64,000 nucleotides of DNA from a virus, in the IMG/VR virus record IMGVR_UViG_3300027763_002006, positions 1 to 64,000 of that record; one strand, given 5' to 3'. The position numbers and the translations under genes were made by a program. Below the pieces are notes generated by a model. It was not told the DNA's origin and made no database searches. It saw only the letters and a program-made list of their open reading frames with translations. Below are positions 19,350 to 20,972 of this stretch, piece after piece. How positions within the stretch are numbered: the stretch's first letter is position 1; each line of letters opens with the position of its first letter.

Positions 19350-19790
19350 TATTACAAGCATTTTAGTATGTGCTACGCACATTGTTTCTTCATACTACGT
19401 ATTCGAAACAATTTTCTATTCTCTTTATTGTTTTGGATTGTAATTTAACACTGGTTTAATATTTCGTAGATTCGAGTCATAATTTGCCGTTGCCCGGCAA
19501 AAAATAAAAACATTTCGTGAGTTCTGTTTTCATACTGTATTGATGAGATTTGCTAGTGCAACAGAGGCGGTTGACCTGTACCCCTTACTCAAGATTTGAC
19601 TGTCAGCGGTGATTTCACAATCCCATACAGCGAAATTGTAAATATCTGCGGATGTATCTTTTTCACAGAGCCGCAATCTTTTAGAACCTTTCGTTAGTTC
19701 CTGACGTACACAACCTAAGAATCCAACGGCACAGCACAACCTGTACAGCCTCAATAGGGATTAGCCCGCGCTAATCAAACATATGTGTAT
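19350..19790 (-). ncRNA. Candidate large structured non-coding RNA (~440 nt)
   Basis: Own consensus promoter, upstream terminator, many stems with strand-specific G-U pairs, and two pseudoknot-type complementarities. Confidence 0.65.
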
Positions 19791-19796
19791 ACTAGA

Positions 19797-19825
19797 ATTA
19801 TACATTAACATCATAACAATGTCAA
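19797..19825 (-). promoter_or_regulatory. Consensus sigma70 promoter driving the intergenic RNA
   Basis: TTGACA-17 nt-TATAAT. Confidence 0.85.
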
Positions 19826-19840
19826 CAAATTTAAGTGGTG

Positions 19841-19862
19841 AAAAAGCCCACTTAGTGGGCTT
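19841..19862 (-). terminator. Rho-independent terminator
   Basis: AAGCCCAC-TAA-GTGGGCTTTTT on minus strand, after the fibre gene. Confidence 0.8.
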
Positions 19863-19876
19863 GTTGTTTAATTATA

Positions 19877-20752
19877 TTAAACGTTTAACCATGTACTACC
19901 ATTCCATACTTGTAATATGCTGTTGCTTAATACCATCATTCCTTGTGCAGGACTAGGTATTGCGGCATTTCTTACAGTATCATCGGCGTATACTGGAATA
20001 CGTGGAACACCACTTAAATCAGCATAAGCACCACTTGTGGCTACGGTTGCCAAAGTAGGACGGCCAGTTAGGCTAGTGTATTGTCCATTGAACAATGTTG
20101 GCTTGTGTGTCAAGTCATCATAGTCACCACTGAATAGTGTAGGCTTGCCAGTTAAGTCGTCATAGTCACCACTGAATAGTGTAGGCTTATTTGACAAACT
20201 ATCGTAATCGCTGTCAAATAACACAGGTTTGTTTGACAAGTCGTCATAGTCACCACTGAATAGCGTTGGCTTGCCGGTTAAGCTGTTATAAGCACCGTCA
20301 AACAATACTGGCTTGTTTAATAAGTCACTGTATGCGCCGCTGGTAGCAACCACAGATAAAGATGAACTATTTGCTTTTAAAGCTAATTGTGTAGTCATTG
20401 TTGCACTAAAATTAGCGTCATTACCCAATGCTGTTGCAAGTTCGTTTAATGTATCTAATGCACTTCCTGCACCTGCTTTTAATGCTGTGATAGCATTGTT
20501 AACATATGTTTCACTGGCAGCGTTGGCAATGTCGCTGACGTTTGGTGGATCGGAGAAAGGCAAGTCACGCAAATCATTGTAACTACCATTTTGATCATCA
20601 AAGTAATCTAAATCTACCCAAGCATCGACACCGTTGCCGATTTTAAGTTTACCAGTGTTCAATTCATAGCCCATTTCGCCTTGACTCAGTGTTGGATTTG
20701 TACTAGTCCAGTTTGCCCCTGTGTCTCTTCTAATTTGCATTTTATTAGCCAT
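19877..20752 (-). CDS. Tail fibre-like protein with Mtd_N/hyaluronidase-type N-terminus and 14-aa repeats
   Basis: [36 protein letters not shown]; [14 protein letters not shown] repeats. Confidence 0.8.
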
Positions 20753-20972
20753 TTGCGTTGCCCCCATCTAATTGTATATCACTTGTTGAGAATATTGATG
20801 ATGCTGAACCACCGTCTGTCTCTATAACAGCTCCTTGAAATCCTCTAGGTCCACGTGGACCTACTTGGCCTGAATGTCCAGGAATTCCCTGCGGTCCTCT
20901 TGAACCTTGAGAGCCTCTTGGTCCTGTAGGGCCTTGTAAGCCTCTGGGTCCTGCAATGTATTGTATAGTCAT
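20745..20972 (-). CDS. Short collagen-like (Gly-X-Y) protein
   Basis: [16 protein letters not shown]...; GGAG RBS; TAAATA upstream. Confidence 0.75.

What the first reader, a model, noticed from the sequence alone, without database searches (positions are those of the whole stretch)
19350..19825. Independently transcribed ~440 nt highly structured ncRNA candidate with pseudoknots
Seen: the largest intergenic gap is insulated by a terminator (19841-19862) and has a perfect TTGACA-17-TATAAT promoter, but no credible ORF. Minus-strand pairings are: GAUUAGC/GCUAAUC (19759-19776); long-range GAGGC+GGUUG (19737-19752) with CAACC+GCCUC (19564-19573), whose bulged UGUAC can pair with GUACA (19577-19581); a GAAC/GUUC stem around GAAA; UGCGG/CCGCA (19647-19675); a G-U-rich stem (19614-19642) whose loop GCUGUAU complements AUACAGU (19534-19540); and UUUGCCG/CGGCAAA (19483-19501). 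The G-U pairs work only on the promoter's strand. Inference: a large phage RNA comparable in kind to GOLLD/ROOL, or a new ribozyme or scaffold class.
Basis: partly seen in the sequence, partly recalled or inferred. Interest (0 to 1): 0.85.

Follow-up and report, generated by a model that had tools for sequence, protein, structure and literature searches.

The report
Orphan twin-box phage RNA gene
The gene-free gap encodes a real, about 440-base, doubly knotted non-coding RNA with its own promoter. It is a divergent extra copy of a large RNA family of uncultured T4-like freshwater phages, of which only the first third is catalogued (Rfam Polynucleobacter-1), and its function is still unknown.

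Summary
The observation largely holds. The gap 19349-19876 has a 12/12 sigma-70 promoter just after a terminator. Its 74-aa ORF is broken in relatives. About 440 nt on the minus strand are kept at about 91% identity in nine other IMG/VR contigs, although the downstream gene differs.

It is not a new class. Profile searches and shared motifs tie it to a family of at least 119 phage contigs. In that family a roughly 450-nt RNA follows a small GIY-YIG gene, and its first 141 nt are Rfam RF01718 (Polynucleobacter-1, Weinberg 2010).

The window copy is an orphan paralogue. It has no GIY-YIG neighbour and no RF01718 match. A close relative's 235-kb contig carries both types.

It adds a second pseudoknot (CUGA:UCAA). 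It argues against the proposed long-range GAGGC+GGUUG / CAACC+GCCUC helix.

The RNA carries the family's hallmark: one 7-nt word twice (here ACGAAAU), flanking a hairpin. The two copies were identical in all 93 distinct copies compared there, across nine different words.

Function is unknown. My best guess is a trans-acting scaffold whose two boxes are read by one partner. This scan has described the same family before on other DNA.

The parts
19844..19862 (-). Terminator-like hairpin closing the upstream tail-fibre-like gene (19877-20767)
   Evidence: Also present in L004. Absent in relatives where the MtnN-like gene abuts the RNA.
19797..19825 (-). Sigma-70-type promoter TTGACA-17-TATAAT. 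Predicted start near A19790.
   Evidence: 12 of 12. The identical site is in L004. Weaker 9-of-12 sites lie at the same place in L017 and before the G001 orphan copy. Sequence conservation among relatives begins at about 19787-19790.
19349..19790 (-). Predicted ~440-nt non-coding RNA, an orphan twin-box paralogue. The 3' end is not defined and conservation runs on to about 19325.
   Evidence: About 91% identity in 9 IMG/VR contigs. ORF broken in relatives. RNA-library contigs of 4 studies cover 19367-19415 and 19517-19789 but no flank.
19759..19776 (-). 5' hairpin GAUUAGC/GCUAAUC, followed by CCCUA as in the canonical P1
   Evidence: Stem invariant; loop varies (GCGG, GUUG, GAUC, GAUG).
19684..19701 (-). 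Hairpin GGAAC-UAACGAAAG-GUUC. Its loop holds a third, imperfect box-like copy (GAACUAACGAAAG).
   Evidence: Aligns to the P4a region of canonical RNAs. Invariant, so untested.
19647..19675 (-). Hairpin UGCGG/CCGCA
   Evidence: changes only in the loop (CUC to AAA, A to C, U to A).
19611..19646 (-). P6, a long G-U-rich hairpin
   Evidence: C-G to U-A compensatory change, plus U-G to C-G, A-U to G-U and U-A to U-G changes in L003, L017, L002 and L152. Homologous to canonical P6, which shows 5-6 pair types per position.
19625..19631 (-). Pseudoknot PK2, 5' strand: P6 loop GCUGUAU
   Evidence: Pairs with 19534-19540. Family covariation.
19534..19540 (-). Pseudoknot PK2, 3' strand: AUACAGU
19603..19606 (-). 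Pseudoknot PK1, 5' strand: CUGA
   Evidence: Pairs with UCAA at 19571-19574. The last pair covaries U:A, G:C and A:U in 64 of 64 distinct segments. A further G-C to A-U swap occurs in the G004 canonical copy.
19564..19584 (-). P8: GGGG (19581-19584) pairs with CCUC (19564-19567). The near-invariant loop UACAGGUCAACCG (19568-19580) carries the PK1 3' strand UCAA (19571-19574).
   Evidence: Homology alignment A3 and pair counts.
19550..19561 (-). Variable hairpin inserted in the P8 linker (UUGC-ACUA-GCAA)
   Evidence: Fully compensatory replacement in relatives: UUGUU/AACAA, UUCUUAU/AUAAGAA, UUCG/CGAA.
19512..19518 (-). Twin box R1: ACGAAAU, preceded by ACUC
19483..19501 (-). P11 hairpin UUUGCCG-GGCAA-CGGCAAA between the two boxes
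   Evidence: 96% of cells paired; C-G to G-C swap between subfamilies.
19461..19467 (-). Twin box R2: ACGAAAU, preceded by AUCU
19384..19409 (-). P12: GUUUC/GAAAC enclosing AUAC-GUA-GUAU
   Evidence: U-A to C-G change (L003, L004, L012, L016) and U-A to A-U change (L152).
19368..19382 (-). P13 hairpin AUGUGC-GUA-GCACAU
   Evidence: Canonical homologue covaries with 3-5 pair types. No U-tract follows on the RNA strand. It reads as terminator-like on the opposite strand.
19325..19367 (-). Conserved 3' tail and old junction sequence. A second copy lies after the 188-aa gene at about 18735-18785.

Best explanation
Identity (well supported, about 0.9). Window 19349-19790, minus strand, is a non-coding RNA gene with its own sigma-70-type promoter. 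It is an orphan, divergent paralogue of the roughly 450-nt 'extended Polynucleobacter-1' or 'twin-box' RNA of uncultured T4-like, often jumbo, freshwater and marine phages.

It shares the family's 3' two-thirds:
- the P6 hairpin, whose loop forms a 7-bp pseudoknot with a downstream strand;
- a second pseudoknot between YUGN and the NCAA of the near-invariant P8 loop (GGUAC..CAACCGCCUCUG);
- the P11 hairpin flanked by two identical 7-nt boxes;
- helices P12 and P13.

Its 5' third has diverged beyond what the Rfam model recognises.

Mechanism (inferred, about 0.3). It acts in trans as a folded scaffold, probably within a ribonucleoprotein. The scaffold displays two single-stranded copies of one 7-nt word (here ACGAAAU, after ACUC and AUCU) to a single reader. 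The word sets the specificity, and the phage keeps several such RNAs with different words.

Shown: conservation, non-coding nature, helices, both pseudoknots, box identity, paralogy, and independence from the neighbouring genes.
For: - Promoter and terminator. The same 12/12 promoter is in L004.
- Conservation: about 91% in 9 contigs, with three different downstream genes (188-aa gene, tail-fibre gene, 247-aa gene).
- Non-coding.
- Homology to the large family: the motif scan finds at least 119 contigs. nhmmer aligns the window-type profile to 95 canonical copies at E 0.03 to 1e-10, about 30 of them at 1e-5 or better.
- All 12 canonical copies scanned match RF01718. 95 of 105 follow a 141-146-aa GIY-YIG gene, and 89 of 112 are followed by a convergent gene.
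- Structure: 13 helices with heavy covariation. In the shared core 92% of cells are paired, against 38-50% in slid controls. PK1 has 64 of 64 distinct segments paired with 3 pair types. PK2 has 19 combinations.
- Twin boxes: R1 equals R2 in 86 of 86 canonical and 7 of 7 window-type copies, with 9 words. They are also identical (AGAUGAA) in a very divergent orphan copy in G001.
- Paralogy: G004 holds the window-type RNA at 92.5 kb. It also holds a GIY-YIG gene plus RF01718 RNA at 216.5-217.4 kb.
- Expression hint: contigs from 4 metatranscriptome studies lie only on the RNA.
Against: - No transcript ends were measured. There is no intrinsic terminator after P13, so in this window the RNA could run on into the 188-aa and tail-fibre genes and also serve as their leader.
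- The RNA-library contigs may be DNA carry-over. They may also map only because the RNA is the most conserved stretch.
- No partner for the boxes was found in the RNA, within 1.5 kb, in the paralogue, or in the window.
- If the boxes paired with a target, mixed G/A states tolerated by wobble would be expected. None is seen among the 93 copies compared. The one exception is the G004 canonical copy, CGACAGG against UGACAAG.
- The window-type 5' third is too invariant to test its helices.
Confidence: 0.62

Rival explanations
1. The two boxes are not read from outside. Lying antiparallel, they form a two-fold symmetric, purine-rich non-canonical duplex (tandem sheared G.A or A.A pairs around a central U.U or A.A). 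This duplex closes the P11 arm. The RNA is then an architectural or self-assembling scaffold like ROOL or GOLLD, or it is bound there by a homodimer.
For: All words are purine-rich, and their positions 2/6 and 3/5 give G.A with A.G or A.A combinations. Strict identity, with no mixed G/A state, fits symmetry better than base pairing with a target. The G004 pair CGACAGG/UGACAAG keeps C-G and G.U at the ends of such a duplex.
Against: Pairs i/8-i and 8-i/i are physically independent, so symmetry alone does not force identity. The window word ACGAAAU gives C.A and G.A pairs of uncertain stability. RNAalifold's alternative register (UCGGAU/AUCUGG) fails in 25 of 86 copies and in the window type. 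There is no structural data.
Confidence: 0.2
2. It is mainly a cis-acting 5' leader (attenuator, thermosensor or riboswitch-like) that controls the downstream 188-aa gene and the tail-fibre genes.
For: In the window and its closest relatives the element lies upstream of co-oriented genes. No terminator separates them, and conservation runs up to the next gene.
Against: The downstream gene differs among near-identical copies. Canonical copies are mostly followed by a convergent gene (89 of 112). The G001 orphan copy lies antisense to both neighbours. The 188-aa gene is a later insertion into the RNA's 3' tail.
Confidence: 0.08
3. It is a guide or partner RNA of the small GIY-YIG nuclease that neighbours the canonical copies. 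It would act here in trans with the protein encoded elsewhere in the genome.
For: The nuclease gene and the RNA are tightly adjacent (95 of 105). The protein is a bare 123-position GIY-YIG domain with no DNA-binding part. A kin genome has one nuclease gene and two RNAs with different boxes.
Against: The module sits at a fixed syntenic place (gp46-like gene upstream, baseplate genes downstream), so adjacency may be inherited. Orphan copies lack the 5' third. No target was found. A 7-nt word is very short for a guide. The 92-kb record here has no GIY-YIG gene, but it is only 26% complete.
Confidence: 0.07
4. It is a ribozyme whose two identical boxes mark two equivalent reaction sites, so that the P11 segment is excised or exchanged.
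For: The size, the two pseudoknots and the near-invariant core loop (GGUAC..CAACCGCCUCUG) are ribozyme-like. The repeated ACUC|box and AUCU|box junctions would give a seamless product.
Against: No match to any Rfam ribozyme. No joined form appears in RNA contigs (table 5: none). There is no biochemical data.
Confidence: 0.03

Closest known systems
Polynucleobacter-1 RNA motif (Rfam RF01718; Weinberg et al. 2010, Genome Biol 11:R31, PMC2864571)
   Same: It belongs to the same RNA superfamily. In canonical relatives RF01718 is the first 141 nt of the roughly 450-nt RNA. The window RNA shares the uncatalogued 3' two-thirds and a P4-like region. Habitat also agrees (fresh water). The function is unknown in both.
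   Different: The window copy does not match the RF01718 model even at E up to 10. It does not follow a GIY-YIG (GOS11034-like) gene, it has its own consensus promoter, and it carries a box word (ACGAAAU) unlike any canonical one. The published motif does not include the pseudoknots, the twin boxes or the 3' 300 nt.
GOLLD and ROOL large phage-associated RNAs (Rfam RF01998, RF03087)
   Same: These are also large, intricately folded non-coding RNAs encoded by phages, with no known biochemical function.
   Different: There is no sequence or structure match. The size (about 440 nt) and architecture differ, as do the hosts and habitats. Nothing here tests self-assembly.
Guide RNAs of OMEGA/TnpB/IscB nucleases and IS110 bridge RNAs
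   Same: In canonical loci a structured RNA lies next to a small nuclease gene. Short variable words sit within a conserved scaffold.
   Different: The words are only 7 nt and are duplicated identically. No target was found. Orphan copies lack the nuclease gene. The locus is syntenic rather than mobile. The resemblance is a lead only.

Membership tests
Polynucleobacter-1 RNA (Rfam RF01718) as defined by its covariance model | Match to the RF01718 model at or above its gathering score (37 bits) | tested here: not met
   No hit in the window at gathering scores, none in 19250-19950 at E up to 10, and none in the 92-kb record. Canonical relatives score 77-119 bits.
Polynucleobacter-1 RNA (Rfam RF01718) as defined by its covariance model | Location directly downstream of a GOS11034/GIY-YIG-type gene (Weinberg 2010 supplement) | tested here: not met
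   The upstream gene here is a tail-fibre-like gene; in close relatives it is an MtnN-like gene. There is no PF19835 match in the record.
Polynucleobacter-1 RNA (Rfam RF01718) as defined by its covariance model | P1-P4 helix set of the model | tested here: inconclusive
   A P1-like hairpin followed by CCCUA, and a P4-like region (GUCAGGAAC..AAAGAUUGCGG), align loosely. The window-type copies are too alike to test these helices.
Extended Polynucleobacter-1 / twin-box phage RNA (uncatalogued superfamily, defined here from 86 canonical copies) | Significant sequence-profile similarity to canonical members | tested here: met
   nhmmer with the window-type profile against 95 canonical copies gives E 0.03 to 1e-10, about 30 of them at 1e-5 or better, over profile positions of about 100-445.
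Extended Polynucleobacter-1 / twin-box phage RNA (uncatalogued superfamily, defined here from 86 canonical copies) | P8 with the loop GGUAC..CAACCG and the pseudoknot YUGN:NCAA | tested here: met
   Window: GGGG-UACAGGUCAACCG-CCUC, and CUGA:UCAA. The covarying pair is A:U here, as in L096.
Extended Polynucleobacter-1 / twin-box phage RNA (uncatalogued superfamily, defined here from 86 canonical copies) | Loop of the long hairpin P6 complementary to a 7-mer downstream of P8 | tested here: met
   GCUGUAU:AUACAGU, 6 Watson-Crick pairs plus 1 G.U. The family shows 19 covarying combinations.
Extended Polynucleobacter-1 / twin-box phage RNA (uncatalogued superfamily, defined here from 86 canonical copies) | Two identical 7-nt boxes after ACUC and AUCU, flanking hairpin P11 (UUUGCC..GGCAAA) | tested here: met
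   ACUC-ACGAAAU at 19512-19522, P11 at 19483-19501, and AUCU-ACGAAAU at 19461-19471.
Extended Polynucleobacter-1 / twin-box phage RNA (uncatalogued superfamily, defined here from 86 canonical copies) | 3' hairpins P12 and P13 (GAUGUGC-GUA-GCACAUC type) | tested here: met
   19384-19409 and 19368-19382. Compensatory changes occur in relatives.
GOLLD / ROOL | Match to Rfam models RF01998 / RF03087 | tested here: not met
Cis-regulatory leader or riboswitch | Constant association with a downstream co-oriented gene or gene class | tested here: not met
   Three different downstream genes follow near-identical copies. Convergent genes follow 89 of 112 canonical copies. The G001 orphan copy is antisense to both neighbours.

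The most novel reading that the evidence does not exclude
The twin 7-nt boxes are programmable specifiers. Each RNA of this family reads one short nucleic-acid word twice, for example on both strands of a palindromic site or on two molecules. T4-like phages then keep several such RNAs, canonical plus orphans like this one, with different words. That would be a new kind of RNA-directed recognition system, possibly working with the small GIY-YIG nuclease.
Probability: 0.08. Interest if true: 0.9.

Novelty: new variant of a known kind. Interest (0 to 1): 0.6.

Why it matters
Polynucleobacter-1 has been an orphan Rfam motif since 2010. The data here show that it is only the first third of a roughly 450-nt, doubly pseudoknotted RNA that is common in uncultured T4-like phages.

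This window adds three things.
- The RNA can exist as a free-standing gene with a textbook promoter, which gives a testable transcription start. It sits away from the GIY-YIG gene, so the two are separable.
- One phage lineage keeps at least two paralogues with different box words.
- The hallmark of two always-identical boxes survives even when the word and the 5' third are completely replaced. That points to the boxes as the functional core.

Together these make the family a tractable target for structure determination and partner hunting.

Tried and rejected
- **Diversity-generating retroelement.** The upstream gene has an Mtd_N domain. No template/variable repeat pair and no reverse transcriptase were found. 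Rejected.
- **tRNA or tmRNA.** ARAGORN finds none in the window or in canonical loci.
- **Known phage records.** blastn and tblastn against GenBank phages gave no match.
- **Coding.** The 74-aa ORF is broken in relatives.
- **Partner for the boxes.** I looked for a complement inside the RNA, an exact reverse complement within 3 kb, a G-U-tolerant complement within 1.5 kb, complementarity between paralogues of one genome, inverted copies in the window, and an extended box-plus-flank complement in the window. None was consistent.
- **Third co-varying box at the P4a site of canonical RNAs.** It does not covary.
- **RNAalifold helices P9 and P10.** P9 is better explained by the PK2 pseudoknot. P10 breaks in 25 of 86 copies and in the window type.
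- **Single-sequence folding.** The z-score of about -2.3 on the minus strand and -2.0 on the plus strand does not discriminate.
- **Metatranscriptome contigs.** They cover only the RNA. They cannot show ends, strand or level, and flanks without cover prove nothing.
- **PDB sequence search with the GIY-YIG protein.** No match.
- **Literature.** Searches for an RNA-guided GIY-YIG system or for later work on Polynucleobacter-1 found nothing beyond Weinberg 2010.

Full report
**1. What is in the window**

All genes around the finding lie on the minus strand.
- The gap 19349-19876 separates a 296-aa tail-fibre-like gene from a 188-aa ORF. The tail-fibre-like gene (19877-20767) has an Mtd_N domain and 14-residue repeats. 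The 188-aa ORF (18782-19348) has no family match.
- A terminator-like hairpin (19844-19862) is followed by TTGACA-17-TATAAT, 12 of 12, at 19825..19797 on the minus strand.
- Rfam 15 gives no match at gathering scores in the whole window. It gives nothing relevant at E up to 10 in 19250-19950.
- ARAGORN finds no tRNA or tmRNA.
- The single-sequence fold is only marginally better than shuffles, and about equally so on both strands (z -2.3 and -2.0). Folding energy alone therefore proves nothing.
- The window is part of a 92-kb IMG/VR record that CheckV estimates to be 26% complete. This suggests a very large phage.

**2. Close relatives: a conserved, non-coding element**

The 188-aa protein and a 20-mer from the gap led to nine further IMG/VR contigs that carry the element at about 90-93% identity.
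- Conservation starts at about 19787-19790, which is where the promoter predicts the start. It runs to about 19325.
- Only the window and L004 have the tail-fibre gene, terminator and perfect promoter upstream. In the others an MtnN-like gene abuts the element, with a weaker promoter-like site.
- The downstream gene is the 188-aa gene, a tail-fibre gene or a 247-aa gene, depending on the contig.
- The 188-aa gene is an insertion into the element's 3' tail, because about 45 bp of that tail are repeated after it. Distant homologues of the protein align only from residue 11. Its real start is therefore probably the ATG at 19318.
- Substitutions fall in loops or keep pairing. Examples are P6 (C-G to U-A and several wobble-compatible changes), the variable hairpin at 19550-19561 (fully replaced but always paired), and P12 (U-A to C-G or A-U).

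**3. The wider family**

A weak collinear match in a 300-kb contig (G001, locus L022) revealed a diverged homologue in a 443-nt gap between convergent genes.
- A pattern built from motifs shared by both (CAACCGCCTCTG .. TTTGCC ..
- In all 12 such loci scanned, Rfam RF01718 (Polynucleobacter-1) matches at 77-119 bits. The match lies just upstream on the same strand, as the first 141 nt of the same gap.
- In 95 of 105 loci, a 141-146-aa protein consisting only of a GIY-YIG domain precedes the RNA (PF19835, E 4e-33). This fits Weinberg's note that the motif lies downstream of GOS11034 genes.
- The gene after the RNA is convergent in 89 of 112 loci.
- The neighbourhood is syntenic and T4-like, with a gp46/SbcC-like gene upstream and DUF6165, DUF6614 and T4 baseplate genes downstream.

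**4. Structure of the family**

RNAalifold on 86 distinct canonical copies gives about 13 helices. Many pairs show 3-6 pair types at 95% pairing or better. Two tertiary pairings stand out.
- **PK1.** YUGN before P8 pairs with NCAA in the near-invariant P8 loop. The variable pair is U:A 54, G:C 6 and A:U 4 among 64 distinct segments, with no exception. A further G-C to A-U swap occurs in G004.
- **PK2.** The loop of the long hairpin P6 pairs with a 7-mer after P8. There are 19 different combinations. 77 of 86 score at least 6.5 of 7, against 19% in mismatched controls. This replaces RNAalifold's small hairpin 'P9'.

On the shared core alignment, which includes the window-type copies, 92% of cells are paired against 38-50% in slid controls. 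The covariation score is 0.19 against 0.08 or less.

**5. Twin boxes**

P11 (UUUGCCC..GGGCAAA) is flanked by ACUC+7 nt and AUCU+7 nt.
- The two 7-mers are identical in 86 of 86 canonical and 7 of 7 window-type copies. There are nine words: GGAUGAA, AGAUGAA, GGAUAAU, GGAUGAU, AGAUAAU, AGAUGAU, AGAUGAG, GAAUAAU, and ACGAAAU in the window type.
- Close relatives flip G and A in both copies together.
- No complementary partner was found in the RNA, nearby, in a paralogue or in the window.
- RNAalifold's P10, which would pair the box regions in a shifted register, fails in 25 of 86 copies and in the window type.
- The only non-identical pair seen is in the G004 canonical copy (CGACAGG against UGACAAG). 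It differs by two transitions.

**6. Where the window copy fits**

A profile of the window-type copies aligns to canonical RNAs over its positions of about 100-445 (95 copies, E 0.03 to 1e-10). Alignment A3 shows the homology from PK1 to R2 directly.

Threaded on the family, the window RNA has these elements (coordinates):
- P6 at 19611-19646
- PK2: 19625-19631 with 19534-19540
- PK1: 19603-19606 with 19571-19574
- P8: 19581-19584 with 19564-19567
- box R1 at 19512-19518
- P11 at 19483-19501
- box R2 at 19461-19467
- P12 at 19384-19409
- P13 at 19368-19382

The 5' third (19650-19790) keeps a first hairpin followed by CCCUA and a P4-like stretch. It no longer matches RF01718, and its helices cannot be tested because the copies are too alike.

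It is also broken without compensation in L003, L004 (GAGAU) and L017, L018 (GAUUG).

**7. Paralogy**

- G004 is a 235-kb contig closely related to the window's phage. It carries the window-type RNA at 92.5 kb. It also carries a GIY-YIG gene plus an RF01718-positive RNA at 216.5-217.4 kb.
- A covariance model of the shared core found a second, very divergent orphan copy in G001 at about 238 kb. It is roughly 455 nt long, lies antisense to both neighbours, and has a 9/12 promoter-like site upstream. It has no RF01718 match, and its boxes are AGAUGAA twice.
- The family therefore includes free-standing paralogues without the nuclease gene, and the window element is one of them.
- The 92-kb record of the window has no GIY-YIG gene and no RF01718 match, but it is only a quarter of a genome.

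**8. Expression**

Fourteen freshwater or lake DNA runs hold a fifth or more of the stretch's sampled words, and six metatranscriptomic runs hold small shares. I laid the contigs of four RNA libraries from four studies on 18700-20300. They cover 19367-19415 and 19517-19789 and none of the flanks. Two of them run on upstream into sequence like that of the relatives without the tail-fibre insertion. This is a weak hint of expression. Contigs cannot show ends or strand, DNA carry-over is possible, and the flanks are less conserved.

**9. Function**

Nothing tested here shows what the RNA does.
- The leader reading is disfavoured by the changing, convergent or antisense neighbours.
- The nuclease-guide reading is weakened by the orphans, by the fixed synteny, and by the absence of any target.
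- I favour a trans-acting scaffold that presents two copies of one word to a single reader, which could be a nucleic acid or a symmetric protein. I put this at about 0.3.
- The main rival is a box-box non-canonical duplex.
- A third, imperfect box-like copy sits in the loop at 19686-19700. It may be chance.

**10. Novelty**

In the literature held here, only Weinberg 2010 mentions the motif. It covers 141 nt and 16 examples, with no pseudoknots, no boxes and no 3' part.

Earlier agents of this scan reached the same description ('twin-box', extended Polynucleobacter-1) on other genomes, and once for a 'second copy'. I read those notes after reaching my own conclusions, and they agree.

The window element is best filed as a new variant of a known, partly catalogued kind: an orphan, promoter-bearing paralogue that escapes the Rfam model.

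Noticed in passing
window 18735-18785 and 19325-19385: The 188-aa gene is bracketed by a roughly 45-bp direct repeat of the RNA's 3' tail. The second copy matches the RNA-to-tail-fibre junction of relatives that lack the gene. The gene is therefore a cassette inserted into the RNA's tail, and its likely true start is the ATG at 19318.
   Followed up: yes
window 16611-18707 and 19877-20767: Two tail-fibre-like genes share 42-bp (14-residue) repeats. They flank the RNA and the 188-aa unit only in this contig and in L004. Relatives have different cassettes here, so this is a variable tail-fibre hot spot around a conserved RNA.
   Followed up: partly
L159:1276-1733 (G001 at about 238 kb): A second, very divergent orphan twin-box RNA lies in the 300-kb contig. 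It is antisense to both neighbouring genes, has boxes AGAUGAA twice, and has no RF01718 match.
   Followed up: partly
L158:1284-1670 (G004 at 216997-217383): The canonical copy in the window's close relative has non-identical boxes (CGACAGG and UGACAAG, two transitions). This is the only exception to box identity seen.
   Followed up: partly
window 19686-19700: The hairpin loop GAACUAACGAAAG is a third, imperfect copy of the box unit (compare GAACUCACGAAAU and GAAUCUACGAAAU). It may be chance: 15 of 100 shuffles reach the same number of matches.
   Followed up: partly
window 19368-19382; also L004 and L017: The P13 hairpin scores as terminator-like on the opposite strand. In canonical loci a convergent gene ends right there, so P13 may double as that gene's terminator.
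   Followed up: no
L103:13146-13222: A freshwater-2 RNA (RF02980) match at 51.8 bits lies about 10 kb from the twin-box RNA in a 103-kb phage contig.
   Followed up: no
L022:819-1247 and homologues: The GIY-YIG protein next to canonical copies is only the catalytic domain (141-146 aa). It has no sequence match in the PDB, and PHROG 447 labels it 'NAD synthetase', probably a mis-annotation.
   Followed up: partly
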